Assembly (NCBI GenBank): GCA_018241895.1
Contig: JAFECX010000238.1
Coordinates: forward strand, 2,996-66,995
DNA from: Pseudomonadota bacterium
GTDB lineage: Bacteria > Pseudomonadota > Gammaproteobacteria > Burkholderiales > Burkholderiaceae_C
DNA length: 64,000 nt
Direction: 5' to 3'
In this document: positions 3,801 through 28,632 of the stretch, one piece after another
How the letters are laid out: every line of letters begins with the position of its first letter
Numbering within the stretch: the first letter of the stretch is position 1
Position numbers and translations under genes: made by a program
Notes under the pieces: generated by a model
Databases searched by the model: none
Told to the model about the DNA's origin: nothing
What the model saw: only the letters and a program-made list of their open reading frames with translations

Positions 3801-3825
3801 GCCAATACTGTTGCTTTGGTTGATC

Positions 3826-4307: not shown

Positions 4308-4379
4308 GTCGCTCTCGAGCCGGCGTAAGCCAGCGCGCGTCGCCCCTAGAATGATCGGCCGTACCCCCTAAGCGCGCAT

Positions 4380-5390: not shown

Positions 5391-5416
5391 GACGCCGGGC
5401 ACCGATTGCGACCGGC

Positions 5417-6640: not shown

Positions 6641-7734
6641 TCAGAGTCGGCGGCATGTACGTCTACCCGGCGGTCTTCGTCGTCATCCTGCTGCTGCGTG
6701 AGCTCGTCGAGTTCGACGGGCGAGTGCACGGCGTCTTTGCGCGCGTGTGTGCCGCCCTCGTCCTCGTGCTGTTGACGCTGCTGACGGCGCTGCGCATCGA
6801 CACCGGTACCGACTACCCGACCTACGAGCTGATCTGGAGCTACACGAGCCCTTGGGCTGAGGAGTCGCTCCAGGACATGCTGATGCAGTTCCTCGAGCCG
6901 CTGTTCGTGATGACCAACAGCCTGCTCAAGACCTTCTCCGAGGCGCCCTTGCTCTTCTTTGGCAGCTACGCGGTGCTGACTCTGGGATTGCTGCATGTCG
7001 CCATTCGGCGCTTCCCGATCAACCCCGTCCACGCCTACCTCGTCTACACGGGCATCTTCCTGCTGCCTTACGCATTCAACGGCATGCGCCAGGCGGTTGC
7101 CATGTCGATCTTCCTGCTGGCACTGCGCCCGCTGCTAGCCAACCGCACGGCCTCGGTGCTCGGCTACTCGATCGTGGCCGCGGGCTTTCACCTGACCGGG
7201 CTGCTTATCCCTGTCGCGTACGCAGTGCACCGTTTGTCGCGGCGTCGCGACTTCGACCTGCGGTACGTGCTGCTGGTGGGCACCGTTGTTTTCGGGGCGA
7301 TCGGCCTTTCGGGCCTGGGCAGCCGGCTGTTCTTCTCGATCTTCGAATACAAGTTGGAGACCTACTCCGAGCTGTTCTCAGAACGCACCTCCCTGCCGAA
7401 TGTGCTGTGGCGGCTGCTGCTGGCCTCGATGCTGCTTGTGTCCGCAAGGGCCACGCCCGCATCGCACGCACTCCGGCAGTTGCTGCTCATCTATCTCGTC
7501 GGGTTCTTCATTTATCTCGCACTCGCCGATTTCAACATGCTCGCGACGCGGTTCAACATGTTCTTCCGCGTGCTCGAGGTTATCCTCATCCCCTGGACGC
7601 TTGCCGGCCTGCCTCGATGGCCGCGGCTCAGCATGCACGCACTGTATTGCGGGCTCCTTGTGGCTGCCTTGCTGATCGTGGCGATGGACCCGGATTACGC
7701 GTATCACTCGATCTTGGCACATGTGAACTCCTGA
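6637..7734 (+). CDS. EpsG-family Wzy-like polysaccharide polymerase
   Basis: Multi-TM; ALRIDTGTDYPTY, FNGMRQAVAMS and GFHLTG match EpsG-family motifs (GTDY..Y, RQ..A, FH.S). Confidence 0.75.
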   Translation: MIRVGGMYVYPAVFVVILLLRELVEFDGRVHGVFARVCAALVLVLLTLLTALRIDTGTDYPTYELIWSYTSPWAEESLQDMLMQFLEPLFVMTNSLLKTFSEAPLLFFGSYAVLTLGLLHVAIRRFPINPVHAYLVYTGIFLLPYAFNGMRQAVAMSIFLLALRPLLANRTASVLGYSIVAAGFHLTGLLIPVAYAVHRLSRRRDFDLRYVLLVGTVVFGAIGLSGLGSRLFFSIFEYKLETYSELFSERTSLPNVLWRLLLASMLLVSARATPASHALRQLLLIYLVGFFIYLALADFNMLATRFNMFFRVLEVILIPWTLAGLPRWPRLSMHALYCGLLVAALLIVAMDPDYAYHSILAHVNS

Positions 7735-7750
7735 GACTGCACACCCGCGC

Positions 7751-8674
7751 ATGCCAACGATTTCCGTCGTCATCACAAGCCACAACCGCCAGCGCGAGGT
7801 CGTGCGCGCGATTCGCAGCGTCGCCGGCCAGACGCTGCCTGCGCTGGAGATCATCGTCGTCGACGACGCCTCCTCTCCCGCCTTGAGCGCCGTCGAGCTT
7901 GCACCGCAACAGCAGCCCCCGCTACGGCTGATCCGGCACGAGCAAGCCCGCGGACCGGGTGGCGCCCGCAATGCCGGGATTCGTGCGGCCAAGGGCGAGT
8001 TCGTGGCTTTCCTCGACGACGACGACCAGTTCGTGCCTGAGAAGCTGGCACGCTGCACGGTCGTGCTCGATCGGCATGCGGAGGCGTCCGTGCTTCACCA
8101 CGCTGCCTACATCGACATGATCAACGAGGGTGTCGGCTATACGACGCGCCTCGAGCCGCACGACGGCGGCGCCGGACTGTACCGGCGCCTGCTAGTCAAG
8201 AACATCGTCGGTGGCACGCCCATGGTGGTGGTCCGGCGCGAGGCCCTGGCAACGCTTGGCGGCTTCGACGAGGGCCTTGCAGCACTCGAAGATTACGATC
8301 TCTGGCTGCGTCTCGCGCGCGCCGGATACCGCTTCGTCGCGCTGCCCGAGCCCTTGACGCGCTACGACTGCGTCACCGCGCGTCGTAGCGTCACCAAGTC
8401 GGACGCTGCCGGTGCCGGCACCTTCGCGCGCATTTTGGCGAAGCATGCATCGGCGCGCGCCGCGTTGACGGCGGCCGAGCAGCTCGAGCAGCGTCGATGC
8501 GTTGCTGAGACCGAGCTCCAGCGCGCGCTCCTGCGGCTCGACCGACACGATGCCATCGCCCGCGCCTGGGCCCTGTGGCGACTGCAGCCGACGCTGCGCG
8601 CGACACTCGCTTTCGTCACCGCAGTCACCCTGGGCCCCAGGGCGATGATCCGACTGCGCGCGGCACGCGGTTGA
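7751..8674 (+). CDS. Glycosyltransferase family 2
   Basis: SVVITSHNR, GGARNAG, AFLDDDD, EDYDLWLR. Confidence 0.9.
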   Translation: MPTISVVITSHNRQREVVRAIRSVAGQTLPALEIIVVDDASSPALSAVELAPQQQPPLRLIRHEQARGPGGARNAGIRAAKGEFVAFLDDDDQFVPEKLARCTVVLDRHAEASVLHHAAYIDMINEGVGYTTRLEPHDGGAGLYRRLLVKNIVGGTPMVVVRREALATLGGFDEGLAALEDYDLWLRLARAGYRFVALPEPLTRYDCVTARRSVTKSDAAGAGTFARILAKHASARAALTAAEQLEQRRCVAETELQRALLRLDRHDAIARAWALWRLQPTLRATLAFVTAVTLGPRAMIRLRAARG

Positions 8675-9513
8675 TGCTTGCGACTGCGCTGGACGAAACC
8701 GGGGCGACTGCGGTCGCCGTCCTCATGGCCATCTACAGCCGCGACGAACCTGCATCGTTCGAGCGCGCCATGGACTCCGTGTTGTCGCAGGAACTGCCGG
8801 CGGGATACGTCTCGAGGATCTATCTGGGCATCGACGGCCCGATCCCCGCCGCCCTGGAAGCGGCGCTGCAGCGGTACCGTGAACGGCTGCACTGCATCTC
8901 GCGCAGCGACGCCAACTGCGGCCTGGCGCAGACGCTCAACCGCCTGATACGGCTGCGCGAGGACGAGGCGTTGTTCTTCCGCATGGACGCCGACGATGCG
9001 TCCCTGCCCGGCCGGTTCTCGGCCCAGATCCGGTATCTGGAAGCGCACCCCGAGGTGGACATCCTGGGCACTGCCATCATCGAGGAGGGCGAAGACATGG
9101 CGCCGCGCGTGGTGCGCTTCGCCAGGAGCCACGAGGACGCCGCGGCCCGCATCGCGCGCCGCGTTCCGGTCGCACACCCCACCGTGTGCATGCGCGCGCG
9201 GGTGCTGGACAAGTTGCAGGGTTATCCGGAGCGGCGCGGCAACGAAGACATCGCGCTGTGGTTCGAGTGCCTGCGCGCCGGGCTGCGTTTCGACAATCTG
9301 GCCGAACCGTACCTGCGCTTCACCGTGAGCCCGGCATTCTGGAAGCGGCGCAGCTTGGAAAAGGCGTTCTCCGAGTGGCGCTGCTACATGCAAGGCATCT
9401 ATCGGCTCACGCCGTGGACGTGGCAGTACATCTACCCCATGGCGCGATTGGCACTGCGCCTGAGTCCGACCGCGCTCGTCAAACGGCTGTATGCCAGCAG
9501 CGCTCGCGGTTGA
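8674..9513 (+). CDS. Glycosyltransferase family 2 (AmsE-like)
   Basis: VLMAIYSRD, NCGLAQTLN, RMDADD, HPTV, EDIALW; TGATG overlap gives start 8674. Confidence 0.85.
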   Translation: MLATALDETGATAVAVLMAIYSRDEPASFERAMDSVLSQELPAGYVSRIYLGIDGPIPAALEAALQRYRERLHCISRSDANCGLAQTLNRLIRLREDEALFFRMDADDASLPGRFSAQIRYLEAHPEVDILGTAIIEEGEDMAPRVVRFARSHEDAAARIARRVPVAHPTVCMRARVLDKLQGYPERRGNEDIALWFECLRAGLRFDNLAEPYLRFTVSPAFWKRRSLEKAFSEWRCYMQGIYRLTPWTWQYIYPMARLALRLSPTALVKRLYASSARG

Positions 9514-9607
9514 CCTTCGTTGCCGAGCAGACCGGTTCGGTGCGCAATCGGATGCAACTGCGGCCCCACTACACTAAAGGGCACGAGGCCCGGGTGCCCG
9601 TGAAGAC

Positions 9608-10801
9608 ATGAGCGACACATTGGCCAGCGCGAATCCCGACCACGTCGAGCCGAGCTTCTCCGGACGAGACGCAGTCGCCGACGACCGTGCCGTGTTGCTG
9701 GAGTACGCGACCGCGCTGGCGCAGCGCTGGCGCCTGGTGCTGTCGTTGCCGATCGCCGCTGCACTCGTCGCGTTCGCTTGCACTTTCCTGATTCCACGCA
9801 CCTACACCGCGAGAACGACGCTGATACCGCCTCAGCCGCAGCAGGGCGCTGCGGCGTCCGCGCTCGCGTCGCTGGGGGCGTTGACAGGGCTTGGCGGCGG
9901 CTTGACGGGCTTCAAGACCACTGCGGATCAGTTCGTGTCGCTGATGCAGAGCGTCCAGGCCCAGGATCACCTCATCGACCGATTCAAGCTGATGGACGTC
10001 TACGAGGCCGACTATCGAGAGCAGGCACGCCGCAAGCTGGGACGCGACACGCGCATCACGCTCGGCAAGAAGGACGGATTCATCACCGTCGAGACGGACG
10101 CCGAGACGCCCCGCATGGCCGCCGACATGGCGAACGAGTACGTCGAGGAACTGCGGCGCCTGGCGAGCGGGCTGGCGCTGACCGAAGCCAAGCAACGGCG
10201 TGTTTTCTTCGAGGGCGAACTGCAAAAGACCCGCGTCCTGTTGACGCAGGCTCAGGCGAGGCTGCAGCAAAGCGGGGTCGGCGCCGGTGCCATCAAGGCC
10301 GAGCCCAGGGCCGCAGCCGAGGGCTACGCCAGCCTGCGCGCGTCTGCCACCGCTGCGGAAGTGCGGCTGCAGACCCTGCGCCGCTCGCTGGCCGAATCCG
10401 CGCCCGAGGTGCAGCAGCAGCGCGCGATGCTCGATGCCTTGCGCGTCGAACTCGCCAAGGTCGAGCAGACCGACAAGGGCGGCGCCGATGTCGACTACAT
10501 CGGACGCTACCGCGAATTCAAGTACCAGGAGACATTGTTCGATCTGCTCGCCAAGCAGTACGAGCTGGCCCGTATCGACGAGAGTCGCGAGCACGCCCTG
10601 GTCCAGGTGATCGACGTCGCCACGGCACCGGAGCGGCCGAGCGGCCCACGCCGGATCCTGATCGCTGCGGGGGCCGCGGCAGCCACGCTGCTGGCACTTT
10701 GCTTCTGGCTGCTGCTCGTCGGCTCGTGGCGCCAGATGACGTCGGATGACCCCCGCGTCGTCCAGGCTGCCAGGCTGCGTGCAGCGCTGCGCGATCGATA
10801 G
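9608..10801 (+). CDS. wzz: Wzz/GumC-like polysaccharide co-polymerase (chain-length determinant)
   Basis: N- and C-terminal TM helices flanking a coiled-coil region; IDVATAPERPSGPRR motif; no kinase domain. Confidence 0.8.
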   Translation: MSDTLASANPDHVEPSFSGRDAVADDRAVLLEYATALAQRWRLVLSLPIAAALVAFACTFLIPRTYTARTTLIPPQPQQGAAASALASLGALTGLGGGLTGFKTTADQFVSLMQSVQAQDHLIDRFKLMDVYEADYREQARRKLGRDTRITLGKKDGFITVETDAETPRMAADMANEYVEELRRLASGLALTEAKQRRVFFEGELQKTRVLLTQAQARLQQSGVGAGAIKAEPRAAAEGYASLRASATAAEVRLQTLRRSLAESAPEVQQQRAMLDALRVELAKVEQTDKGGADVDYIGRYREFKYQETLFDLLAKQYELARIDESREHALVQVIDVATAPERPSGPRRILIAAGAAAATLLALCFWLLLVGSWRQMTSDDPRVVQAARLRAALRDR

Positions 10802-12312: not shown

Positions 12313-14084
<1,772 letters not shown>

Positions 14085-14088
<4 letters not shown>

Positions 14089-14708
14089 GGTGGAGCCATC
14101 TTAGCGGGATGCGAGAGCGTCACAGCAGCCGCAGGCGACGCCGCGGGCTCTACCGGTGCCGGCTCGCCCACCTTGATCTCGCGCGTGACAAACCACCAGC
14201 GCCCTTGAGCGTGGGCAAAGAGCGTGAAGACACCGGTACGTGCGATGTCGAAGCGCGCCTCCAGCCGTGCCGGCTCACCGGCCTTCGGGCTGGCCGAGGC
14301 GATCCACACCGCTGGAGGCTGCTGCGGCGCCACTTCGCCGCTGGTGCGCGCGGCCAGCGTCGGGGGCCGGATCGGCTGGGCAGCGCCAGCGGTTGTTGGA
14401 GCCTTGGCAACGAAGGCGCCACGCGCCAGCACGAGCGCAGTGGTACCTGGCAGCTCACTGTAGGCGCGCGCCGACACGCGTCCGGCCAGGCTGACGTCCG
14501 GCAACTGCAGCGCCAAATGGGTGCTTGGCTGTGCGGACTGGGCGCCCAGCAGCGCCACCAGGCGGTCGAGGTCGGGCGCCTGCTCGACCTCGAGCGGAGT
14601 GAACTGTGCATGCGCCCCGCCGCACAACAGCAGGGCCAGCATCCAGGGCAGCCGCCGACGACGGGCCGGGCGACGTGCGGTGTCGATGGCCTGGAACCGG
14701 AAGGGCAT
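14085..14708 (-). CDS. Exported SoxY-fold (Ig-like) protein lacking the GGCGG arm
   Basis: Signal peptide RRRRLPWMLALLLCGGAHA; LQLPDV...SELPGTT and EARFDIARTGVFTLFAHAQGRWWFVTREIKV align by eye with SoxY; stop overlaps gspE start (ATGA); start uncertain (14708 or 14642). Confidence 0.6.
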
Positions 14709-14726: not shown

Positions 14727-14753
14727 AGAAGAAAGGGGGGCCGCAGCCCCCCA
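14727..14753 (-). terminator. Rho-independent terminator after the S-layer-like gene
   Basis: Minus strand GGGGGGC-TGCG-GCCCCCC followed by TTTCTTCT. Confidence 0.8.
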
Positions 14754-14788: not shown

Positions 14789-16807
14789 TTACTTCTTGAT
14801 GCCGGTCTGCGCGTCCTGGTGGTCCGTGCTCTCGGTGCTGGAGGACTCGAGGTTCATGAAGTCCGCCCCCTGGGCGCCGGAGACCTCGGACAGCAGGCTC
14901 GTCTTGGCGTTGACCAGGTAGTTCTGCACGCGCAGCGTCGAGGCCGACTCGGACGAGATGCGCAGACGCGCGTTGGCGTTGGCGTAATCACCTTCGCTCG
15001 CATAGCCATCCTTGCCCGCGACACCCCTGGACGCCGAGACCTGGCCTTGGGTCGCCATCAGATTGGCGATCTCACGGTCGCTCAGGAAGCGCGCAGCCCG
15101 CGGCGGCAGATCGAACAGCTTCACGTAGCGGCCATAGTTGCCGTCGGCGCGGATGTACTGCGCCCAGACGTCGGCCGTCTGCGTCTCGCTGTTGTTGATC
15201 ACGCGCACGTAGGTACGCCAGTCGCTGTCCCACGGAAACTCGCTGTAGTTGCGCACATCGATCTTGATGCCGCCGCCCAGACCCGCCAGCGGCGCCGGGC
15301 AGGAGCTGTTGGACTGCTCCGCACCGATCGCGCCGATCGAGTGATTCTTGTACACCGTCGCCACCGCGTTCTGGAAGCGGCTCTGGGGAATCAGGGCCGA
15401 CCCGCTGACCTGCATGCAGACATAGGCCCGGTCGCTCGTGCCTGGCGCCGTGATGTTGAACGGCGTCGCAACGGCGCCGCTGGCCGCAACCGCATCGAGA
15501 AGGCCGTTGTCGCCAGGACTCCCCGTCGCGCCCAAGATCGTCGCGAGTTGCGCCAGGTTGAAGGCGGCCGTGGCCGTCTTGCCGTCCGGCGAGAAGCTCG
15601 TCGCACCCCAGACCGTCGTCGCTGCGGGGTCGCAGACAGGTGACGTCGACATGCCGATGGCCGCGCCCGTCGAGAAGCCGTTGGTCGCGTCGACCTTGAT
15701 CTGCAGCGAACCGACGTCGACGTTGCCGTTGATCTCGTTGGGAACGCCGTTCAGATCGTTCGGACCGAACTTGTAGTAGGGCGTCAGGAGGTTCGTGTCG
15801 AAGGCATCCAGCGCACGGTTGCTGAACTTGACCGTCCCAAGCGCCATGGTCTTGGTCGTCATGCCCGCGGCCCAGCCACCCGGCAACGTGAGCGCGTTGT
15901 TGGCCGTGAGCGGATCGGTGTTGCGATCCACCGCCACACCCTTCTCCATATGCACCGCCAGCGCGGTCTGGAACTGGATGTAGCCGCCGTTGAGCAGCGA
16001 CTGGATCGGCGCGCCCTGCGACTCGCCCTGCACGCCGTCGCCGGCGCCGATGTAGTTGCGCCCGGTCACGGTGATCTTGCGGATGCCTTCGCCGCAGCCG
16101 TCCTCGACGTTGCCGGTGTTGCCCGCGTCGGTACCGCTCAGCACGGGCACCGCGTTGACAGCGGTCGCCAGCTTGGTCACCAGCGCATAGTCGGCCGCGC
16201 CGGCAACGCCGACACCCGTCACGGAAGCCAGAGCGGTGTTCCAGGGGGCAGCGGCACCGTCGCCGGGATTCTGACCGTTGAAGACGAGTTGCAGGTCGCC
16301 GATGGCGATGGGCGCGGCGGTGTTGTTCACCAGCCGGAACTTGTAGCGGTACTTCTGCTTGACGGTGGCGTTGGCGGCGTCGGCACCCGCATCCAGCGCG
16401 GGCCAGACATCGACCGACATCAACACCAAGGCCGCCTTGTTCGGCGGCACGTTACCAACGTCGGCAACAGGCAGCACGGGCACGACGGCATTGCCGTTGT
16501 TGCGGCGGTAGGCGGCCACCGTCTTGTAGGTGGCCACTTGTGCATCCCACTCGGCCGCACCGTCGCCGCCCAGCACGAGCGTGACGTTGAAGTCCTGTGT
16601 GGAACCGGCGTTGGCCGCCGGGCCGTTGTCGAAGCTGTACGACACCGTGGGCGCACGCAGCGTCTGCGTGATGGCAACGTTGGCCGAGATGGCCTCGCGT
16701 GCCACGGTCAGGCCCGACTGGCTGATGTTGGCTGCCAGAGCCGAACCCGCGCCAGCGCACAGGGCTCCCGCCGCGACGGCAACCTGCAACTTCTTCATCG
16801 TCTTCAT
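14789..16807 (-). CDS. Large Sec-exported protein, putative S-layer/surface-array subunit and T2SS substrate
   Basis: Signal peptide MKKLQVAVAAGALCAGAGSALA (alternative start 16798); A/G/N/T/V-rich; no catalytic motif recognised; C-terminal YVRVINNSETQTADVWAQ segment; own terminator. CDS is secure; the function is inferred. Confidence 0.6.
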   Translation of the reverse strand: MKTMKKLQVAVAAGALCAGAGSALAANISQSGLTVAREAISANVAITQTLRAPTVSYSFDNGPAANAGSTQDFNVTLVLGGDGAAEWDAQVATYKTVAAYRRNNGNAVVPVLPVADVGNVPPNKAALVLMSVDVWPALDAGADAANATVKQKYRYKFRLVNNTAAPIAIGDLQLVFNGQNPGDGAAAPWNTALASVTGVGVAGAADYALVTKLATAVNAVPVLSGTDAGNTGNVEDGCGEGIRKITVTGRNYIGAGDGVQGESQGAPIQSLLNGGYIQFQTALAVHMEKGVAVDRNTDPLTANNALTLPGGWAAGMTTKTMALGTVKFSNRALDAFDTNLLTPYYKFGPNDLNGVPNEINGNVDVGSLQIKVDATNGFSTGAAIGMSTSPVCDPAATTVWGATSFSPDGKTATAAFNLAQLATILGATGSPGDNGLLDAVAASGAVATPFNITAPGTSDRAYVCMQVSGSALIPQSRFQNAVATVYKNHSIGAIGAEQSNSSCPAPLAGLGGGIKIDVRNYSEFPWDSDWRTYVRVINNSETQTADVWAQYIRADGNYGRYVKLFDLPPRAARFLSDREIANLMATQGQVSASRGVAGKDGYASEGDYANANARLRISSESASTLRVQNYLVNAKTSLLSEVSGAQGADFMNLESSSTESTDHQDAQTGIKK

Positions 16808-17353
16808 TGAGTAGAACCCTCATGCTTGGTTAAACGCGGCGCTCCCTCCAACGGTGAGCGCACCGGTACACACATCGCCCACGCCCGGCATCAGGCGCTG
16901 ACCCGATCAGTCTAAGCGGCCCACTGTGCGTCCCACAAGACGGGAACGCCTCCTCCAGGCAGCTTCGGCGATCAAGTCGCCCGGATTCTGGCACAGGGGC
17001 GCACACCCCCCGACCGCGGGGTGCCCATTTGGGTGCTGGATGCGCATTCTTTCGTGCGGATCGTTGCATTTTCCTCACAGCGCGCCACGGTGCGAGTGAC
17101 TGCACGCCACAGCAAGTGCATCGCGCCGCGGCGTCCAGGCGCTGCCGGGCCAGGACGGGGCCAACGGCGGTGCATTTGTGCGAGCGACGCAACGCTCCCG
17201 TGCCGCGGTTGCCGCCGGCCGCCCGCGTGCGCATTCCATCTGCGAAGCCTATGGGCGCAAGGTCGCCCGCGCCCCGGCGCCCCATTGCCGGCATCCCCGC
17301 TCGCTACACTGCGTGCCGGGGCAATGCAGCAAGGACGCCCGACGGCGGCTGGG

Positions 17354-18550
17354 ATGCAGGAATTCGAATACGTTGCGCTGGACGCGCGGGGCAGACGACA
17401 GCGCGCCATGCTCGTCGCTGGCAGCGAGGCGCTGGCACTGGCGCAGATCCAGCAGCGCGGACTCACGGTGGTCGCGCTCACGCCGCATCGTTCGAGCGCC
17501 GGCGGCCGTGGCGCACAAAGGCAGGCCGCGATGAGCGCCGAGCGGCTGGGCGCGCTGCTGCAGGAGTTGGCCATGCTGGTGGAGGCGGGCGTGCCGCTGG
17601 CCGAAGCGGTGGCCACGCTGGCGGCCAGCCAGCCGCCCGGGCATGCGCTGGGCCAGTTGCTGGCGCGGCTGCGCGGCGGCGAGGCCTTCTCGGAGGCACT
17701 GGCGGGCTCGGGCCTGCGGCTGCCCGTGTTCGTGCTGCAACTGGTGCGCGCCGGCGAGGCCACGGGCGAGTTGCCACGCGCCCTGCGTGCGGCGGCCGAG
17801 CATCTCGAGGCCGAGGCGCAGTTCGCGCGCGAGGCGCGCAACGCGCTGCTGTACCCGGCAGTGCTGGTGATGAGCGGAGTGCTCGCCACGCTGGTGATGT
17901 TCGTCTTCGTGGTGCCCAAGTTCGCGGGCATCCTCTCCAACCCGAAGGCCGACTTGCCGCTGGTGAGCCGGTGGGTGCTCGGGCTGGGCTTGTGGCTCAC
18001 GCAGCACCAGGTGGTGGTCGGGCTGGCGCTGGCCGGCATGGTGGCACTTGGCGCCAGCCTCGCCGGGCGGCCCCGGGTGCGCGAAGCGGCATGGGAGCTG
18101 GCGACGCGCACGCCGGTGCTCGCCCGCTGGACCTGGCATGCGGAGATGGCGCGCTGGAGTTCGCTGCTCGCGGTGCTGCTCAACAGCCGCGTGCCGCTGC
18201 TCACCGCGCTGGCGCAGGCCAACGAAACCCTGCGGCGGCGTTCGCTGCGGCTGCGCGCGCAGCTGGTGCTGGCCGACGTGCGCGGCGGCAAGTCGCTGAG
18301 CCAAGCGCTGTCGGACCACGCTGTGCTGGACGCGGCCGGGCTCAACCTGCTGCGGGTGGGCGAGCGTGCCGGCACGCTCGGCCAGACGACCGCCGCGCTC
18401 GCGCGCACGCACACCCAGCACAGCCAGCAGCGGCTCAAACGGTTGCTGGTGCTGCTGGAACCCGTGACCATCCTGCTGATCTCAGTGGTGCTCGGGGGCA
18501 TCATGATTTCGGTCATGCTCGCCATCACGAGCTTGACCAACGTGCTATGA
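17354..18550 (+). CDS. gspF: T2SS inner-membrane platform protein F
   Basis: MQEFEYVALDARG, GEATGEL, ALLYPAVL, FVVPKF, GERAGTL, LLEPVTI. Confidence 0.95.
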   Translation: MQEFEYVALDARGRRQRAMLVAGSEALALAQIQQRGLTVVALTPHRSSAGGRGAQRQAAMSAERLGALLQELAMLVEAGVPLAEAVATLAASQPPGHALGQLLARLRGGEAFSEALAGSGLRLPVFVLQLVRAGEATGELPRALRAAAEHLEAEAQFAREARNALLYPAVLVMSGVLATLVMFVFVVPKFAGILSNPKADLPLVSRWVLGLGLWLTQHQVVVGLALAGMVALGASLAGRPRVREAAWELATRTPVLARWTWHAEMARWSSLLAVLLNSRVPLLTALAQANETLRRRSLRLRAQLVLADVRGGKSLSQALSDHAVLDAAGLNLLRVGERAGTLGQTTAALARTHTQHSQQRLKRLLVLLEPVTILLISVVLGGIMISVMLAITSLTNVL

Positions 18551-18630: not shown

Positions 18631-19092
18631 GTGACAGGACGAGTGCGCACGCCGAACCGACCCCGATTGCATGCCGGCCACCACTGGCGCGGCTTCACGT
18701 TGCTCGAAATGCTGGTGGTGATGGTGATCATCGGGCTGCTGGCCAGCTTGGTGGGCCCGCGCATCTTCGGCAAGGTCGACAGCTCCAAGATTCAGACGGC
18801 GCAAACGCAGGCCAAGATGCTCAAGAGCGCCATCGCCATCATGCAACTAGACATCGGCGGCACGCCGCCTGCGGACCAGGGGCTGCGCTGGCTCGTCGAG
18901 CGACCGACGGTGGAGCCGCAGGCTTCGCAGTGGAAGGGCCCCTATCTGGACGGCGCCCTGCCCGACGACCCCTGGGGCCACCCGTACATCCTCAAGGTGC
19001 CCGGCATCGGCGGACAGCCGTACTCGGTGATCTCCTACGGGCCCGACGGCAAGGAAGGCGGCGAGGGCGCGGGCGCGGACATCGTGCAATGA
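18631..19092 (+). CDS. gspG: T2SS major pseudopilin G
   Basis: GFTLLEMLVV prepilin motif; WKGPYL, DPWGHPY, SYGPDGKEGGEG..ADI. Confidence 0.95.
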   Translation: MTGRVRTPNRPRLHAGHHWRGFTLLEMLVVMVIIGLLASLVGPRIFGKVDSSKIQTAQTQAKMLKSAIAIMQLDIGGTPPADQGLRWLVERPTVEPQASQWKGPYLDGALPDDPWGHPYILKVPGIGGQPYSVISYGPDGKEGGEGAGADIVQ

Positions 19093-19535
19093 TGCGGCAT
19101 GCCCAGCGCCAGGCGGCCGGCTTCACGCTGGTCGAGATGCTGGTCGTAATGGTGATCCTAGGTCTGCTCGCCGGGGTGGCGTTGCCCGCCATGCAGCGCT
19201 GGCACGACGCTGTGCAGGCGCGCTCCGAGGGCGCGGCGATGGTGCAGGCGGTGCGCGCAGGCGCCTTTGCCGCTGCCGCCAACCGGCTGGGCGTGCGGCT
19301 GGACGCACGCTCGTTCGACGGCAGCCAGGCAGGCTCCGACGCGGCGCCGAGCCTGCCCGTGCCCCTGCCTGCCGGCTGGCGGCTCGAGAAGATCGAGCCG
19401 GCCCTGCTGTTGGGCAGCGGGCTGTGCAGCGGCGGCCACGCCGTTCTTCGAACGCCCGGCGGGGAGTTGATGCGCCTGGCCGTGTCCGAAGGCGACTGCA
19501 CGGTCAGCCTGCAGTCGGAGCCGGCGGCGCCGTGA
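19089..19535 (+). CDS. gspH: T2SS minor pseudopilin H
   Basis: GFTLVEMLVV; ATGA overlap with gspG. Confidence 0.8.
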   Translation: MMRHAQRQAAGFTLVEMLVVMVILGLLAGVALPAMQRWHDAVQARSEGAAMVQAVRAGAFAAAANRLGVRLDARSFDGSQAGSDAAPSLPVPLPAGWRLEKIEPALLLGSGLCSGGHAVLRTPGGELMRLAVSEGDCTVSLQSEPAAP

Positions 19536-19975
19536 GATCGGCCCGGCGCAGCACGCGCGGGCTCAGCATGATCGAGGTGCTGGCCGCGATGGTGATCTTC
19601 AGCACCGGCGCGACAGTACTGTTCGGATGGATCGGTCAGACCAGCGAGCGGCTGGCGCGGCTGGCGGGAGAGCAACGCGAACTGTTCACCGACATGGTCG
19701 TGCTGGAGTACATGAAGACGGTCAACCCGATGCTCGAGCCGGCGGGTGAGATACGCCTGAGCGACGGTGTGCTCCTGCGCTGGCAATCTGAGCGGCTTCC
19801 GGGCGATGACACGGTACGCGGCCCAGGCTCGCTCTACGAGCTCGGGCTGTATCGCGTGAAGGTGCGGGTGAGCGCGCCGCAGCAGGGCGTGCGCGAGTCC
19901 AGCGTGGAGCTTGCGGGCTGGCGGCAGGTGCGCCAGCCCTCGTCGCAAGGACCGATCCGCGAGGCCGGCACGTGA
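19532..19975 (+). CDS. gspI: T2SS minor pseudopilin I
   Basis: RGLSMIEVLAAM; GTGA overlap. Confidence 0.8.
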   Translation: MRSARRSTRGLSMIEVLAAMVIFSTGATVLFGWIGQTSERLARLAGEQRELFTDMVVLEYMKTVNPMLEPAGEIRLSDGVLLRWQSERLPGDDTVRGPGSLYELGLYRVKVRVSAPQQGVRESSVELAGWRQVRQPSSQGPIREAGT

Positions 19976-20598
19976 GCACACCGAAGCGGCGCAGGCACGG
20001 GCTCACACTGGTGGAGTTGCTGGTGTCGCTCACGATCATGGGCTTCGTGATGACGCTCGTCTCCCAGGCCGTGTATCAGACCGGCCAGATCGTGCGGGTG
20101 GCCGACGAGTCGGTGGTCCATCTGGCCGCACGCTGGAGCCGAGGGTGGGCGGTGACGGCGCTAGTGGCGAATCTGGCAGCACCGCGCGAAGGGAAGCTGC
20201 TGCCGATGACCGGTTCCAGCGCCAAGCTGAACGGCTATTCGACCGCGCCCGTGGACGCGCCGGATTCGGGCGTGCAGCCGTTCAGCCTGCAGTTGCGCGG
20301 CGATGACGCCGGCGGCAGCGAACTCGTGTACGTTCCGGCGCGACCGGGCGCACAGCCCATCATCGTCGCGCACTGGACGTCGCCGGTGGAGTTCAGGTAT
20401 CGCGCGGCGGACGGGCAACGCAGCGATCGCTGGCCGACGTGGACGCGCAGTGGTCGAGACACGGTGTTGCTGCCCACGGCGATCGAGCTTACGGAGGCCG
20501 GCGGCGACGTCCTGGTGATGGCTTTCGAGGTGCCGGCCGCCGGTGCGCGCCAGGCCGAAGAGAGTAGCGGCCCGTTTCGCACTGACGACAGCCCGTGA
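19972..20598 (+). CDS. gspJ: T2SS minor pseudopilin J
   Basis: HGLTLVELLVSL; operon position. Confidence 0.8.
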   Translation: MSTPKRRRHGLTLVELLVSLTIMGFVMTLVSQAVYQTGQIVRVADESVVHLAARWSRGWAVTALVANLAAPREGKLLPMTGSSAKLNGYSTAPVDAPDSGVQPFSLQLRGDDAGGSELVYVPARPGAQPIIVAHWTSPVEFRYRAADGQRSDRWPTWTRSGRDTVLLPTAIELTEAGGDVLVMAFEVPAAGARQAEESSGPFRTDDSP

Positions 20599-21650
20599 AC
20601 GCATCGAAACGCGGCAGCAGCCGCTACAGGCCGCGCGCGCGGCCCGTCGGCGGGTTTGCTCTGGTCATCGTGCTGTGGGTGCTCGCCGGGCTGACGGTGG
20701 TCGCGGTCTCGATCGCCGCCACCGTGCAGAGCAACAGCCAGAGCGTGAGGCTGCTGCGCGACCGGCTGCGCGCCGAACGCGCCTTCCTCTCTACGGGCAG
20801 CCGGCTGAAGGTGATCGGCGCGACATCGATCGCGCTCCCCTACTCCTACCTGAGCGCACGCGGGCAGGTGTTCCTGGACGGACGCGTATCGCGCGTAAAT
20901 GCCGACGAAACCGTGGTGCTGCAGGACGGCCGCGGGCTGATGAGCCTCGAGCGGCCGGAGGGCGCGGCGTGGCAGCGCTTCCTGGTGAGCTGCGGCGCCA
21001 CGGCGGACGAGGTCGAGCGGCTGCAGGATGCACTCGCCGACTACGAGGACGGCGACTCGTTGCGCCGCTTGCATGGCGCAGAGCGCGACGACTATCGCGA
21101 CACCGCGCTGCCGGCGCCGCGCAACGCACCTGTGCTCACGCGCGACGAGCTGTGGCGTGTGCTAGGCTGGCCGGGCCTGCGCCGCCGCTGGGATGCCGCC
21201 GGCTGCGGCGAGAACGTGGTGGCCGGCACGGCGCAGGGATTCAATGCGAACACAGCACCGCTGACCGTACTGCTTGCTCATGGCTGGGACGAGATGCAGG
21301 CGCGCGCATTGATCGACGCACGACGCGCCGGATTGCCGCTGCTGACGGGCGGGCTGCTCGACATCGGTGGCGGCCCCGCCCCGATGTTGCGCGACAGCAG
21401 CCTGCCAGGCGACCGCATCCGGGTCCGCCACCGGTTGGCATCGCTAGAATGGGCGCTTCAGTACGATCTGCAGTTCACTCCGAGCGATCCGGGCGGCCCT
21501 TGGCGCATGCACGACGTGCAGGTGGTGCGATCGGCGCCACAGCAGCCCGAACCCCCGGGAGCCTCGGATTTCCCTCCGCTCGACTACGTGGCCTCGCAAC
21601 AGGATAGGGTCCGGTTGAATGCTGTACCCACTTCACCTATTGGCCGCTGA
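20595..21650 (+). CDS. gspK: T2SS minor pseudopilin K
   Basis: GFALVIVLWVL (no Glu5, typical of K), LADYEDGD, GAERDDY, PRNAP, NANTAP. Confidence 0.9.
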   Translation: MNASKRGSSRYRPRARPVGGFALVIVLWVLAGLTVVAVSIAATVQSNSQSVRLLRDRLRAERAFLSTGSRLKVIGATSIALPYSYLSARGQVFLDGRVSRVNADETVVLQDGRGLMSLERPEGAAWQRFLVSCGATADEVERLQDALADYEDGDSLRRLHGAERDDYRDTALPAPRNAPVLTRDELWRVLGWPGLRRRWDAAGCGENVVAGTAQGFNANTAPLTVLLAHGWDEMQARALIDARRAGLPLLTGGLLDIGGGPAPMLRDSSLPGDRIRVRHRLASLEWALQYDLQFTPSDPGGPWRMHDVQVVRSAPQQPEPPGASDFPPLDYVASQQDRVRLNAVPTSPIGR

Positions 21651-22677
21651 CGGGAAGGACGGCTGGCAGGTCGTCGACACCGGGCACAGAAGCTGGCGAC
21701 GCACGTTGCTCGTGCCGCGGCAATTGTGCTTGTTCGAATCGATACCGTGCGGCAGCGTGCACTGGCATGAGTTGACGGGCTTTGCGCAGCTCCAGGCGCG
21801 CAGGCTTTCCCCGTTCGAGCGCACCGGAGCGTCGGCATTGCGTCGCGCGGGCCGCCTGCATCTGTGGCTGTGGGACGCGGCGGAGGTCGACGCGATGCTT
21901 GCCGCCCAGACGAAGGATGCCACCTCCGTGCAGCGTGCCGAGGCGCTGTATCTGCCTTGGCCCGTCGCCGGCAGCAAGCTGCGGCGCACCACGCAGATCG
22001 AAGAGGAAGTGCATGTGGACGAAGCGGGCGCATTGCTCGACAGCGAACCGACGGGTCACGCGCCTGGTCTGGATCTGTCGGTGCTGCTGCCGCGCGCGGC
22101 CGGACATGACTGGCTGGGCGGCTCCCTGGATGCCGCTGCGGTGCGCCCGGCCTGGGCGGGCACGGCGGCCCTGCTGAACACGGTCGGCATGACCGCGGCC
22201 ATGGCCATGCTGGTCTACCTGGGTTATGAAGGCGGTCGGCTGTGGGGCACGCTGAACACGGCCGAGTTGCTGGAGGAGCGCGTTGCACGGCAGGCAGCCA
22301 CGCGTGGCGAGTCCGCCCGGATCGAACGGGCGGCCTTGGCCGACGCGCAGTGGATCGATGCGTATCGGCGGGCCACGGCGCAACTCGACGTCGCCGCCGC
22401 GCTCGATGCCTTGCGCGCGCCGATGGAGGCGTACGGCGTCGCGATCCGGGAACTGGATGCCGCGGGCACCGAGTTGCGGCTGACGCTGGTGAGTGCAGGC
22501 GGCGAGATCCGCATTGCCGAGTTGCTACAGGCCTTGCGGACCGTCGCCGGCGTGCGCGGCGCGAGCCTGCATCAGCACAAGGAACTGGAGTGGGCGGTCT
22601 ACATCGTCGATATGCCCGGTTTCGCTTCTGGTGCGCGCCTGCGACAGGGATCGGAGACCCAGCGTGCCGCGCATTGA
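21619..22677 (+). CDS. gspL: T2SS protein L-like
   Basis: Large cytoplasmic N-domain, single TM, periplasmic domain; position after gspK; sequence divergent. Confidence 0.6.
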   Translation: MLYPLHLLAADGKDGWQVVDTGHRSWRRTLLVPRQLCLFESIPCGSVHWHELTGFAQLQARRLSPFERTGASALRRAGRLHLWLWDAAEVDAMLAAQTKDATSVQRAEALYLPWPVAGSKLRRTTQIEEEVHVDEAGALLDSEPTGHAPGLDLSVLLPRAAGHDWLGGSLDAAAVRPAWAGTAALLNTVGMTAAMAMLVYLGYEGGRLWGTLNTAELLEERVARQAATRGESARIERAALADAQWIDAYRRATAQLDVAAALDALRAPMEAYGVAIRELDAAGTELRLTLVSAGGEIRIAELLQALRTVAGVRGASLHQHKELEWAVYIVDMPGFASGARLRQGSETQRAAH

Positions 22678-23257
22678 CGCAGCGCGCAGCAGCGGCACTC
22701 TGCCGGGCTTACTGGCGATCGCCGTGGCCGTACTGCTGTGGTGGCAGGCGGACCAGTTACATTCGCGACGTATCCTCGCTGGGGAGCGTGTCGCAGCCGC
22801 AAGGCAATTACTGCGTGCCGAGCGCACGACGGCCGATCCGGCCAGTCTTCGAACACGTCGCCTACAGTTGCAGACCGAGCGCCGGGCGCTCGAGCAGCGG
22901 CTGGTCGAGCACGCCGACATGGGGTTGCTACGCGCGCAGCTCTACTACGATCTGCGCGAGCGCTGCTACGCTGTGAAGCTGAATTGCCTGATCCGGCTGG
23001 CCGAGCTCGAGGCGGCGGACAGGCCCAGGGGCGCCGCATCAGACACCGCCAGCGACGATTCGATGGCCAGGCTGGGAGTGCGCCGACTGCGGGCGACGAT
23101 CTCCGGCCTGCTGGGCGAACAGGAACTTCAGGATGTGTTGGCTGCCTTTTCGGCGGACGAGCAGCGGGTGTGGCGCTTTAACCGCGTGCAACTCAAGACG
23201 CGGGCGTTCGAAATCGATATCGAACGGCTGGTTCAGCCTGCTAGTGGGCGGCAATGA
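22664..23257 (+). CDS. gspM: T2SS protein M-like
   Basis: N-terminal TM, coiled coil, small C-domain; position after gspL; GTG start inferred. Confidence 0.55.
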   Translation: MPRIDAARSSGTLPGLLAIAVAVLLWWQADQLHSRRILAGERVAAARQLLRAERTTADPASLRTRRLQLQTERRALEQRLVEHADMGLLRAQLYYDLRERCYAVKLNCLIRLAELEAADRPRGAASDTASDDSMARLGVRRLRATISGLLGEQELQDVLAAFSADEQRVWRFNRVQLKTRAFEIDIERLVQPASGRQ

Positions 23258-23805
23258 CCGCTGGCGTGCGACAGCCAAACGTGCCATCCGATCCCGTGCG
23301 TCCACGCGGTCTGCGGCACGGCTTGCAACTCGGGTTGCTGGGCGTGGCGCTGGGGTCCGCCAGTATCGCCACGGGTTATTTTCTGGCCACGCGCGAAGGC
23401 GAGACCCAGCCCGCTGCGACTTCAGCCGCCGCAGCGGCCAGCAGCCCGACTGCCCTCGTTGCCGAACGGTCCTCCGCGGGCCACGACGAGGTTCCGGCGG
23501 CGACGGCGCACGAACGCAACGAACGGGACACTCTGCGCTGGCCCCTGTGGGCATACCAGTTGATGGACCCGCTGCCGGTCAGGGAGCCGCCGTTGACGCC
23601 GGTGCCGTGGCGTCTGCTGGGGGCTGCATTCTTCGACGGCAAGTGGCACGCTATCGTGCAGCGCCAGGGCGTGGCGCAGCCGGACTACTACAAGACCGGC
23701 GATAAGCTGCCGGGCGGTTATCTCATCCAGGAAATCACGCAGGAAGACCTGACGTTGCGCGCAGGCCACCGCGAGATCGTGCTCTCCTACATCGGCTCGA
23801 GGTGA
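23254..23805 (+). CDS. GspC/XpsN/PilP-like T2SS protein
   Basis: N-terminal TM, Ala-rich linker, C-terminal YKTGDKLPGGYLIQEITQEDLTL resembling the GspC-HR/PilP domain; directly before the secretin. Confidence 0.6.
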   Translation: MTAGVRQPNVPSDPVRPRGLRHGLQLGLLGVALGSASIATGYFLATREGETQPAATSAAAAASSPTALVAERSSAGHDEVPAATAHERNERDTLRWPLWAYQLMDPLPVREPPLTPVPWRLLGAAFFDGKWHAIVQRQGVAQPDYYKTGDKLPGGYLIQEITQEDLTLRAGHREIVLSYIGSR

Positions 23806-28625: not shown

Positions 28626-28632
28626 TTTTTAA

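What the first reader, a model, noticed from the sequence alone, without database searches (positions are those of the whole stretch)
14789..16807. 672-aa exported protein with S-layer hallmarks and no recognisable catalytic motif
Seen: 22-aa SPase I signal from Met 16798; composition dominated by A/G/N/T/V with many short beta-strand-like segments; four Cys in the mature part; C-terminal YVRVINNSETQTADVWAQYIRADG...LRISSESASTLRVQNYL, which recalls the 'YxRxxN' C-terminal Ig-like domains of T2SS-exported proteobacterial S-layer proteins; dedicated terminator. Inference: a very abundant surface-array subunit, possibly of an uncharacterised family.
Basis: partly seen in the sequence, partly recalled or inferred. 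Interest (0 to 1): 0.75.

Follow-up and report, generated by a model that had tools for sequence, protein, structure and literature searches.

The report
Likely S-layer protein with own secretion system
This gene encodes a very highly transcribed, exported, all-beta surface protein that sits inside its own private type II secretion system next to cell-surface sugar genes, so it is most likely the subunit of a bacterial surface layer of a protein family that has been flagged once in a preprint but never characterised.

Summary
ORF 14789-16807 (-) encodes 672 aa with a Sec signal, an A/G/V/T/N-rich acidic mature protein (66.8 kDa, pI 5.0), four conserved Cys, the quoted C-terminal motifs and a terminator hairpin.

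The gene has no Pfam, NCBIfam or PDB relative. AlphaFold gives a chain of beta domains, and Foldseek finds no enzyme or porin fold.

The gene lies between gspE and a divergent gspF-G-H-I-J-K-L-M-C-D operon. This is a second T2SS: canonical gspD-E-F and pilBCD lie on other contigs. Polysaccharide/O-antigen genes flank it on both sides. The synteny recurs in all 10 related loci with enough flank, from Burkholderiales to Rhodocyclaceae-like MAGs.

In four wastewater metatranscriptomes its mRNA contigs are 20-60x deeper than the flanking gsp genes. They are also about 4-8x deeper than the organism's own rplK/rplA contigs.

A Piscinibacter sakaiensis homologue with identical synteny is labelled "S-layer protein" in a 2025 preprint. 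There, transposon mutants of it, of the small neighbouring gene and of four of the five listed gsp genes significantly raise conjugation.

The protein is not detectably homologous to NpdA or Slr4. No lattice has been seen for any member.

Verdict: probable T2SS-exported S-layer subunit (about 0.68), a new member of a known kind.

The parts
14789..16807 (-). Candidate S-layer subunit gene (672 aa; mature about 647 aa, 66.8 kDa, pI 5.0)
   Evidence: ORF and translation. No Pfam, NCBIfam or PDB match. AF2 all-beta multidomain model, pLDDT 76.9. RNA contig depth 245-500 against 5-20 on neighbours.
16733..16807 (-). Signal peptide coding part (residues 1-25, MKTMKKLQVAVAAGALCAGAGSALA|AN)
   Evidence: Read from the sequence: n-, h- and c-regions with AxA. 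Conserved in homologues. Low-pLDDT N-terminal helix. SD TGAGGG 9 nt upstream of the ATG.
16808..16969 (-). About 160-nt 5' untranslated leader
   Evidence: RNA contigs of four runs end at 16950-16969, one running into the sequencing adapter at 16967. Blocks of the leader are conserved in four genera. No unusual fold stability (z 0.08).
16985..16990 (-). CAGAAT hexamer, possible -10 element
   Evidence: Conserved as CA(G/A)AAT in window, L001, L002 and L005. The consensus sigma-70 scan found no full promoter, so this is inferred only.
14735..14752 (-). Intrinsic-terminator-like hairpin followed by a T-run
   Evidence: RNA contigs of X7 and X10 end at 14764-14778, while X17 and X19 read through.
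14085..14708 (-). Small exported accessory protein (about 207 aa), stop/start overlap with gspE
   Evidence: Conserved directly after the candidate's homologue in 8 loci. SoxY Pfam hit in 1 of 8 homologues, E 5e-4. The P. sakaiensis orthologue 1_1832 has the same Tn-seq phenotype as the gsp genes.
12313..14088 (-). gspE-type secretion ATPase
   Evidence: PF00437 E 5.5e-128; TIGR02533 E 3.8e-153 over residues 192-587.
17354..18550 (+). gspF platform protein, divergent from the candidate
   Evidence: PF00482 x2 and TIGR02120 E 1.8e-66. The start at MQEFEY is inferred from the alignment to the model and to the P. sakaiensis GspF.
18631..21650 (+). gspG major pseudopilin and gspH/I/J/K-like minor pseudopilins
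   Evidence: TIGR01710 E 2.9e-45 for GspG. N_methyl motifs and T2SSK_1st.
21619..23805 (+). Three ORFs in the positions of gspL, gspM and gspC/N
   Evidence: Assigned by position and by conservation in related loci. The only family hit is a weak T2SSC match, E 0.002, so the assignments are inferred.
23802..26270 (+). gspD secretin
   Evidence: PF00263 E 1.6e-46 and Secretin_N x3.
1..10801 (+). Polysaccharide/O-antigen-type gene cluster: 2 DegT aminotransferases, hexapeptide acyltransferase, CapD-like dehydratase, 3 GT2, EpsG/Wzy-like, Wzz
26509..33028 (.). More sugar-nucleotide genes: UDP-glucose dehydrogenase, UDP-GlcNAc 2-epimerase, WbpM-like Polysacc_synt_2

Best explanation
**What it is.** The gene most likely encodes the subunit of a proteinaceous surface layer (S-layer).

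**Proposed mechanism, with the status of each step.**
1. The precursor crosses the inner membrane by Sec, and its 25-aa signal peptide is removed. This is inferred from the sequence.
2. It folds in the periplasm into a chain of beta-sandwich-like domains, probably with two disulfides from the four conserved Cys. The fold is predicted; the disulfides are inferred.
3. It is pushed through the outer membrane by the private T2SS that surrounds the gene (gspE, gspF-K, L/M/C-like, gspD). The small SoxY-like periplasmic protein encoded immediately downstream takes part. The context is shown; the roles are inferred from synteny and from the P. sakaiensis Tn-seq phenotypes.
4. On the cell surface it assembles into a coat held to the cell by the polysaccharide made by the flanking O-antigen-type genes. 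This is inferred by analogy with Aeromonas VapA/AhsA.

**Division of labour within the protein.** The strongly conserved N-terminus (residues 26-80) and C-terminal domain plus tail (about 495-672, ending QDAQTGIKK) probably carry export, anchoring and subunit contacts. The variable middle would be the exposed face.

**Transcription.** The gene is mainly transcribed as its own mRNA with a roughly 160-nt leader, at very high level.
For: **The protein.**
- Secreted, acidic, A/G/T/N/V-rich.
- No Pfam, NCBIfam or PDB sequence relative.
- AF2 full-length model pLDDT 76.9, all beta. Foldseek gives only generic multi-Ig hits with TM at most 0.16.
- The C-terminal domain is a beta-sandwich. Its best analogues are TM1070 and ASRT, TM about 0.55, E 4e-3.

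**Secretion context.**
- The gene is embedded in a complete T2SS.
- The genome also has canonical gspD-E-F on C131, a second gspG on C229 and pilB-C-D on C159, so this T2SS is an extra one.
- All 10 related loci with enough flank carry gsp genes beside the homologue. These come from Inhella, Pelomonas, Roseateles, Mitsuaria, Sulfuritalea, Ramlibacter, Rhodocyclaceae and Sulfuricella.
- O-antigen-type genes lie on both sides.

**Expression.**
- Contig depth on the gene is 245-500 (X17, X19), 18 (X10) and 8-10 (X7), against 2-20, 0-2 and 0-2 on the adjacent gsp genes.
- Elsewhere in the 64-kb window depth is mostly 2-20.
- The organism-specific rplK/rplA contigs reach 55-64.

**Evolutionary pattern.**
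- Ends are conserved and the centre is variable.
- The gene is found in only 9 of 201 genomes sampled across the genera of its GTDB family, and is absent from the one other species of its own genus.
- It lies in a low-GC3 island.

**Independent functional hint (bioRxiv 10.1101/2025.11.11.687616).**
- P. sakaiensis gene 1_1831 is labelled 'S-layer protein'. It sits between gspF (1830) and a small protein (1832) plus gspE (1833).
- Insertions in 1821, 1829, 1831, 1832 and 1833 significantly increase conjugation (log2 +1.0 to +3.5). gspF (1830) is +1.9 but not significant (FDR 0.30).
- Its N-terminal 399 aa match the L011 relative at 39 % (E 2e-61) and this protein at 32 % (E 5e-6).
Against: - No electron microscopy, extraction or lattice evidence exists for any member of the family.
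- There is no significant similarity to the proven T2SS-linked S-layer proteins. For NpdA, hhalign gives probability 1.5-12 % and blastp finds nothing. For Slr4, hhalign gives probability 0.4 %, and the HMM score of 4.9 bits is not above shuffles.
- No solved S-layer structure is matched.
- CAI against tuf/fusA/rplKAJL/rpsG is 0.595, rank 1488 of 2300 and below the median of 0.653. This is confounded by the island's lower GC3. The gene does avoid A-ending codons and is rich in GGT and CGT.
- Contig depth is only a rough measure of expression.
- The P. sakaiensis phenotype would fit any thick surface coat.
Confidence: 0.68

Rival explanations
1. An abundant T2SS-exported surface or matrix protein that does not form a crystalline lattice. 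Examples would be an adhesin, a floc/biofilm matrix scaffold or an amorphous coat protein. It would be exported by the same private T2SS.
For: All the context and expression evidence fits this equally well. The organism lives in activated-sludge flocs. The C-terminal domain gives weak Foldseek hits to the Vibrio biofilm protein RbmA and to carbohydrate-binding modules. The P. sakaiensis conjugation phenotype needs only a surface barrier.
Against: A one-substrate T2SS next to O-antigen genes, an mRNA level above ribosomal-protein genes, and conserved ends with a variable centre together match the pattern of proven S-layer genes. These are vapA (PMC4483657), slr4 (PMC7821379) and npdA (PMC10765051). 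No adhesin-type repeats or known binding domains are detected.
Confidence: 0.2
2. A secreted enzyme of an undescribed family (for example a glycan- or polymer-degrading enzyme) exported by a substrate-specific T2SS.
For: T2SS substrates are mostly enzymes (established knowledge). The family has no annotation, so an unknown active site cannot be excluded. Weak Foldseek hits fall on non-catalytic beta-sandwich domains of glycosidases.
Against: No catalytic domain is found by Pfam, NCBIfam, PDB sequence or fold search. The invariant residues are mostly G, N, R, D, Q and S in beta-strand motifs rather than a recognisable catalytic set. The transcript level exceeds that of ribosomal-protein genes. 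The central region varies freely.
Confidence: 0.07
3. An outer-membrane porin or other integral beta-barrel protein, or a pilus/fibre subunit.
For: The protein is all-beta, exported and highly expressed.
Against: The predicted structure is a string of soluble beta domains with no barrel match. The protein ends in a charged, disordered ...QDAQTGIKK rather than an aromatic OMP terminus. It has an SPase I signal, not a prepilin leader, whereas the neighbouring pseudopilins do carry N_methyl motifs.
Confidence: 0.03

Closest known systems
Putative S-layer protein of Piscinibacter (Ideonella) sakaiensis, gene CVM085_Ideonella_sakaiensis_1_1831 (bioRxiv 10.1101/2025.11.11.687616)
   Same: Same protein superfamily. 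Its N-terminal 399 aa are 39 % identical to the L011 relative (E 2e-61) and 32 % identical to this protein (E 5e-6). The local gene order is identical: gspG, gspF, then the divergent SLP, small protein and gspE, with gspD further on. The signal peptide is also MKTM(K/R)KLQVA.
   Different: It belongs to a divergent branch (the L011/P0047 type, about 790 aa with an extra C-terminal extension) and is only about 32 % identical. The preprint infers S-layer function from remote similarity to Slr4 and from context. It shows a conjugation-barrier phenotype but no lattice.
NpdA, S-layer protein of Delftia acidovorans and Paracidovorax citrulli (PMC10765051)
   Same: Also betaproteobacterial. It has a Sec signal and no known domains, is encoded next to a 12-gene gsp cluster that is one of two T2SS in the genome, and has a few conserved Cys. 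Cryo-EM and a deletion mutant prove that it forms the S-layer.
   Different: There is no detectable sequence relationship: hhalign probability 1.5-12 %, and blastp finds nothing for any of 14 family members. NpdA is shorter (about 490-600 aa). npdA lies downstream of the whole gsp cluster, not between gspF and gspE, and no small SoxY-like gene is reported.
Slr4, S-layer protein of Pseudoalteromonas tunicata (PMC7821379)
   Same: It is the most abundant protein of the cell, has a Sec signal and no Pfam domain, and sits immediately next to a T2SS cluster. A short C-terminal motif looks alike: ILRHTNAGTQTGDITVRY in Slr4 against YVRVINNSETQTADVWAQY here.
   Different: It comes from marine Gammaproteobacteria, is 579 aa, and was predicted beta-helical by its authors. 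Similarity to this family is not significant: blastp E 0.03-0.3 on a tiny database, hhalign probability 0.4 %, HMM 4.9 bits with shuffles scoring higher. The Slr4 sequence used was taken from a machine-read supplement.
VapA / AhsA S-layer (A-layer) proteins of Aeromonas with their dedicated secretion genes (spsD, apsE) (PMC4483657, PMC4413209)
   Same: An S-layer gene clustered with a dedicated T2SS-type secretin and ATPase, adjacent to the O-antigen LPS cluster that the layer needs for anchoring.
   Different: They are gammaproteobacterial and about 50 kDa. Homology was not tested here because no sequence was on hand. No Pfam or PDB relative links them.
RsaA of Caulobacter crescentus
   Same: An abundant Gram-negative S-layer subunit anchored to O-antigen.
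   Different: RsaA is exported by a type I system through an uncleaved C-terminal signal and has RTX Ca2+ repeats. This protein has an N-terminal Sec signal, no RTX repeats and a T2SS.

Membership tests
T2SS-dependent proteobacterial S-layer proteins (functional kind: VapA/AhsA, Slr4, NpdA) | Cleavable N-terminal Sec signal peptide | tested here: met
   MKTMKKLQVAVAAGALCAGAGSALA|AN shows the n/h/c pattern and is conserved across 27 homologues. No dedicated predictor was available.
T2SS-dependent proteobacterial S-layer proteins (functional kind: VapA/AhsA, Slr4, NpdA) | Gene physically linked to a T2SS cluster, conserved across species | tested here: met
   gspE, F, G, H-K and D are identified around it. 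The linkage is kept in all 10 related loci with enough flank.
T2SS-dependent proteobacterial S-layer proteins (functional kind: VapA/AhsA, Slr4, NpdA) | That T2SS is additional to the general T2SS of the cell | tested here: met
   Canonical gspD-E-F lie on contig C131, gspG on C229 and pilB-C-D on C159.
T2SS-dependent proteobacterial S-layer proteins (functional kind: VapA/AhsA, Slr4, NpdA) | Among the most highly expressed genes of the cell | tested here: met
   RNA contig depth is 245-500, against 2-20 for most of the window and 55-64 for the organism's own rplK/rplA contigs, with the gene assembled in four metatranscriptomes. This is a rough measure. CAI does not agree.
T2SS-dependent proteobacterial S-layer proteins (functional kind: VapA/AhsA, Slr4, NpdA) | Export depends on the adjacent T2SS | not testable with these tools
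   Only indirect evidence exists: P. sakaiensis gsp and SLP mutants share a phenotype.
T2SS-dependent proteobacterial S-layer proteins (functional kind: VapA/AhsA, Slr4, NpdA) | Self-assembly into a 2-D paracrystalline lattice on the outer membrane | not testable with these tools
   No multimer prediction or microscopy was available, and none is published for this family.
P. sakaiensis 1_1831-type putative S-layer protein family (this family) | Sequence homology and the same gene order | tested here: met
   blastp E 2e-61 to L011 and 5e-6 to P0001. Gene order gspF / SLP / small protein / gspE.
NpdA family | Detectable sequence or profile homology to NpdA (WP_011797163 and orthologues) | tested here: not met
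   hhalign of the 27- and 118-sequence profiles against 8 NpdA sequences gives probability 1.5 % and 12 %. blastp finds no hit at E below 0.01. The HMM does not pick up NpdA above shuffles.
Slr4 family | Detectable sequence or profile homology to Slr4 (EAR28894) | tested here: not met
   Only a roughly 30-residue motif aligns (blastp E 0.03-0.3). hhalign probability is 0.4 %. The HMM gives 4.9 bits, and six shuffled controls score higher. Caveat: a single, machine-read Slr4 sequence was used.
VapA/AhsA family | Sequence homology to Aeromonas VapA/AhsA | not tested
RsaA-type type I-secreted S-layer proteins | RTX Ca2+-binding repeats, no N-terminal signal, adjacent ABC/MFP/TolC genes | tested here: not met
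   No HemolysinCabind or any other Pfam hit. An N-terminal signal is present. The neighbours are gsp genes.
Outer-membrane beta-barrel porins | Single transmembrane beta-barrel fold with an aromatic C-terminus | tested here: not met
   The AF2 model is multidomain with no barrel match in the PDB. The C-terminus is ...TGIKK.

The most novel reading that the evidence does not exclude
This is a fourth family of T2SS-exported S-layer proteins, with no detectable sequence relation to VapA/AhsA (untested), Slr4 or NpdA. Its private one-substrate T2SS has co-evolved with it across more than 100 lineages and includes a previously unrecognised SoxY-like periplasmic accessory factor.

The near-invariant N-terminal motif (SQSG-T-AREVI) and the disordered C-terminal tail (QG-DF...QDAQ-GIKK) would then be the elusive T2SS recognition or anchoring determinants. 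That would make the long-open question of how a T2SS picks its substrate testable, both by covariation analysis and by genetics.
Probability: 0.2. Interest if true: 0.7.

Novelty: new member of a known kind. Interest (0 to 1): 0.45.

Why it matters
**Ecology.** If it is an S-layer, it is the outermost structure of a bacterium that is widespread in activated sludge. Near-identical sequence is present in 20 metagenome and metatranscriptome runs from 12 studies. It would also coat relatives that include the PET-degrading P. sakaiensis, so it would shape floc formation, phage and predator resistance, and genetic tractability as a conjugation barrier.

**Classification.** It would add a further sequence family to the small set of T2SS-dependent S-layer proteins. 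Such proteins keep being missed by annotation because they share no domains.

**Secretion biology.** A T2SS with a single, highly conserved substrate and a dedicated small accessory protein is a clean system for asking how T2SS substrates are recognised.

Tried and rejected
**Homology to known S-layer proteins.**
- NpdA was tested with sequences from the supplement of PMC10765051. Only the signal peptide aligns, so kinship is rejected.
- Slr4 was tested with the sequence in the supplement of PMC7821379. A short motif aligns visually but is not above shuffled controls. It is kept only as a lead.

**Structure searches.**
- Full-length Foldseek against the PDB gives only generic Ig-like hits with TM at most 0.16.
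- C-terminal domain Foldseek gives TM1070/ASRT-type beta-sandwiches at E 4e-3, which says nothing about function.
- PDB profile searches find nothing.

**Expression proxies and regulatory signals.**
- Codon adaptation index came out below the genome median. In this 72 % GC genome CAI mostly tracks GC3, and the whole island has low GC3, so I judged it uninformative and used metatranscriptomes instead.
- tuf and fusA cannot serve as an expression yardstick, because conserved pieces from other organisms pile up on them. Only the longer organism-specific rplK/rplA contigs were used.
- Folding of the leader RNA shows no exceptional stability (z 0.08).
- The consensus sigma-70 promoter scan found none.

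**Names and literature.**
- Cluster look-up for names of homologues found none.
- Literature searches for S-layers in Roseateles, Pelomonas, Mitsuaria, Inhella, Sulfuritalea, Rubrivivax and Accumulibacter found nothing relevant.

**Lipoprotein reading.** The signal peptide's Cys17 is not conserved and has no lipobox context, so this reading is rejected.
Full report
**1. The observation**

The window contains an ORF at 14789..16807 on the minus strand encoding 672 aa.
- A TGAGGG Shine-Dalgarno sequence lies 9 nt before the ATG at 16807.
- The first residues MKTMKKLQVA are conserved in nearly all homologues.
- The signal peptide is therefore best read as 25 aa ending ...GSALA|AN.

The mature protein has these properties:
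- 647 aa, 66.8 kDa, pI 5.0.
- A 15.0, G 10.4, V 8.5, T 7.9, N 7.4, S 7.1 %.
- Very little His, Met or Cys.

It has four Cys (238, 392, 464, 503). All are conserved, two of them invariantly. The quoted C-terminal motifs are there, in the most conserved part of the family. A G+C-rich hairpin followed by a T-run sits 37 nt after the stop codon, at 14752-14735.

**2. What the protein looks like**

It has no match in Pfam, NCBIfam or PDB sequences, either as a single sequence or as a profile.

AlphaFold2 with 27 homologues gives a confident all-beta, multidomain model (pLDDT 76.9, pTM 0.69). Only the signal peptide, one loop (592-611) and the last 29 residues are disordered.
- Foldseek against the PDB returns only generic multi-Ig-type hits with TM-scores of 0.16 or less. 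No enzyme, porin or solved S-layer protein appears.
- The C-terminal domain modelled alone (pLDDT 70) is a beta-sandwich. Its best analogues are the small proteins TM1070 and ASRT (probability 1.0 and 0.96, TM about 0.55, E 4e-3). This says nothing about function.

**3. The family**

Only 41 clusters in the 5.8-billion-protein collection match it. Only 137 representatives out of 1.84 billion match its profile. None carries a name beyond "hypothetical protein".

Close relatives are all 645-680 aa. Named genomes that carry it include Inhella, Pelomonas, Roseateles and Mitsuaria. More distantly (31-35 % identity) it occurs in Sulfuritalea, Sulfuricella, Ramlibacter, Hydrogenophaga, Rhodocyclaceae and other betaproteobacterial MAGs.

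Conservation is uneven:
- Residues 1-80: about 72 % identity across the alignment.
- Residues 481-560 and 641-672: 63-69 %.
- Segments 121-160, 401-440 and 561-600: 27-40 %.

The motifs LGGG(I/V)KIDVRN, R(V/L)INNSE, RLRI(S/T)S..(A/G)S.LRVQNY and the tail QG.DF...QDAQ.G(I/L) persist even in the most distant members.

Distribution is patchy. Only 9 of 201 genomes sampled across the genera of the GTDB family have it, and the other species of the same genus lacks it.

**4. Context**

Genes immediately around the candidate:
- Downstream on the same strand lies a small exported protein (14085-14708). Its stop overlaps the start of a GspE-type ATPase (12313-14088).
- Upstream, across a 546-bp spacer and on the other strand, run gspF, gspG, four pseudopilin-like genes including gspK, three ORFs in the places of gspL/M/C, and the secretin gspD (17354-26270).

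This is an extra T2SS. The same genome (249 contigs, 3.98 Mb, 71.8 % GC) has a canonical gspD-gspE-gspF on contig C131, another gspG on C229 and pilB-pilC-pilD on C159.

Polysaccharide genes flank the module on both sides:
- On one side: two DegT aminotransferases, a hexapeptide acyltransferase, a CapD-like dehydratase, three GT2, an EpsG/Wzy-like protein and Wzz.
- On the other side: UDP-glucose dehydrogenase, UDP-GlcNAc 2-epimerase and a WbpM-like protein.

The stretch 1-26.3 kb has lower third-position GC (0.77-0.88) than the rest of the window (mostly 0.89-0.97). This is typical of a variable surface-structure island.

The link between the protein and the T2SS is conserved.
- In every related locus with enough flank, the homologue lies between gspF and gspE (Inhella/Pelomonas/Roseateles/Mitsuaria type) or between gspD and gspE (Sulfuritalea/Ramlibacter type).
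- The small downstream gene is kept in eight loci.
- One of those eight small proteins hits Pfam SoxY at E 5e-4.

**5. Expression**

Near-identical sequence (at least 96 % of sampled words) is present in 20 public runs from 12 studies of activated sludge, wastewater, digesters, biofilm, sediment and compost. Four of these are metatranscriptomes from three studies.

Contig word depth when those four RNA runs are laid on the window:

| Run | On the gene | On the adjacent gsp genes |
|---|---|---|
| X17, X19 | 245-500 | 2-20 |
| X10 | 18 | 0-2 |
| X7 | 8-10 | 0-2 |

Comparisons within the same organism:
- The rest of the 64-kb window is mostly at 2-20 in X17/X19. The one exception is a sigma-70-family factor gene at 54289-55296, at 150-178.
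- The longer, organism-specific contigs over rplK/rplA reach 55-64. tuf and fusA cannot be used because fragments from other organisms pile up on them.

Transcript ends:
- RNA contigs end at 16950-16969 at the 5' side. One runs into the sequencing adapter at 16967.
- Contigs end at 14764-14778 at the 3' side in two runs. The other two runs read through into the small gene.
- The main transcript is therefore monocistronic, with a leader of about 160 nt.

Parts of the leader and a CAGAAT hexamer just upstream are conserved in four genera.

Contig depth is a crude measure. Even so, a 20-60-fold step at the gene's borders cannot come from contaminating DNA.

The codon adaptation index does not agree. 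It is 0.595 against a median of 0.653, rank 1488 of 2300. In this genome CAI follows GC3, and the whole island scores low. Within the island the gene scores highest. It avoids A-ending codons and is enriched in GGT and CGT, the direction in which the translation genes also deviate.

**6. Comparison with what is known**

The kind of system is known: an S-layer gene next to a dedicated T2SS. It is established for Aeromonas VapA/AhsA, where the O-antigen cluster is also adjacent (PMC4483657, PMC4413209), for Slr4 of Pseudoalteromonas (PMC7821379), and for NpdA of Delftia/Paracidovorax and many other Beta- and Gammaproteobacteria (PMC10765051).

I tested kinship directly.
- **NpdA.** Against eight NpdA sequences from that paper's supplement, profile-profile comparison aligns only the signal peptide (probability 1.5 %; 12 % with a 118-sequence profile). 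BLAST finds nothing.
- **Slr4.** Against the Slr4 sequence from its supplement, only a roughly 30-residue stretch aligns. An HMM of the C-terminal domain scores it 4.9 bits, and six shuffled controls score higher.

VapA/AhsA could not be tested.

The closest precedent is a November 2025 preprint on Piscinibacter (Ideonella) sakaiensis (10.1101/2025.11.11.687616). Its supplementary table lists gene 1_1831 as "S-layer protein", described in the text as a remote homologue of slr4.
- The gene lies between gspF (1830) and a small protein (1832) plus gspE (1833), with gspG (1829) and gspD (1821) nearby.
- Transposon insertions in 1821, 1829, 1831, 1832 and 1833 significantly increased recovery after conjugation (log2 +1.0 to +3.5). 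gspF (1830) was +1.9 but not significant (FDR 0.30). A mutant in the canonical gspE behaved oppositely.
- The 399 residues of 1_1831 held in the table match the L011 relative at 39 % (E 2e-61) and this protein at 32 % (E 5e-6).

The family has thus been flagged once, on context plus a barrier phenotype, but no lattice has been shown.

**7. Verdict**

The best explanation is a T2SS-exported S-layer subunit (confidence about 0.68).
- **Shown:** the protein's features, the private T2SS, the glycan context, their conservation, and the very high mRNA level.
- **Inferred:** export through this T2SS, a role for the small SoxY-like protein, anchoring to the neighbouring polysaccharide, and lattice formation.

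The main rival is an abundant non-crystalline coat or matrix protein using the same export route (about 0.2). An unknown enzyme (about 0.07) and a porin or fibre (about 0.03) are unlikely.

In novelty terms it is a new member of a known kind, belonging to a sequence family that is still uncharacterised. The interest is moderate. What could raise it is the use of this one-substrate T2SS, with its invariant terminal motifs and dedicated accessory protein, to study substrate recognition by T2SS.

Noticed in passing
window 16808-17060 (-); L001 9700-10020; L002 9660-10010; L005 9680-10010: The upstream region of the gene carries blocks conserved across four genera. These include GC(T/A)TAGACT in the leader and CA(G/A)AAT just upstream of the RNA 5' ends. 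They may be promoter or regulatory elements of the highly expressed mRNA.
   Followed up: partly
window 54289-55296 (+): A 335-aa sigma-70-family factor (regions 2 and 4) is the only other gene in the window with high organism-specific RNA contig depth (150-178 in X17/X19).
   Followed up: partly
window 1-26300 versus 26500-64000: The glycan-T2SS-surface protein region has third-position GC of 0.77-0.88, against mostly 0.89-0.97 in the rest of the window. This suggests a horizontally exchanged surface-structure island. The boundary falls between gspD and the UDP-glucose dehydrogenase gene.
   Followed up: partly
window 3816-4307 (+): A HicB-family antitoxin-like ORF (PF05534, E 3.6e-11) sits in the middle of the polysaccharide gene cluster. 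No HicA partner was looked for.
   Followed up: no
window 12313-14088 (-), residues 1-190 of GspE: The first 190 or so residues of this GspE paralogue are not covered by the GspE or PilB models, which align from residue 192. The P. sakaiensis orthologue shares this N-terminal part. It may be the part adapted to the private system.
   Followed up: no
window 10811-12250 (-): A probable lipoprotein (LAACGG lipobox-like motif) with a faint alpha/beta-hydrolase hit lies just downstream of gspE on the same strand. It has no counterpart in the related loci examined.
   Followed up: partly
window 49773-54224 (+): A 1483-aa hybrid sensor kinase (MASE1-CHASE-PAS-HisKA-HATPase-REC).
   Followed up: no
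L011 9962-12343; P0047: A divergent branch of the family (about 785-793 aa, the branch nearest the P. sakaiensis protein) carries extra sequence after the conserved QDAQ motif, so the tail is not always C-terminal.
   Followed up: no
window 14789-16807: Near-identical copies of the gene (at least 96 % of sampled 31-mers) occur in 20 metagenome and metatranscriptome runs from 12 studies (activated sludge, wastewater, digester, biofilm, sediment, compost). The organism is a widespread wastewater bacterium with a very uniform surface-protein allele.
   Followed up: partly
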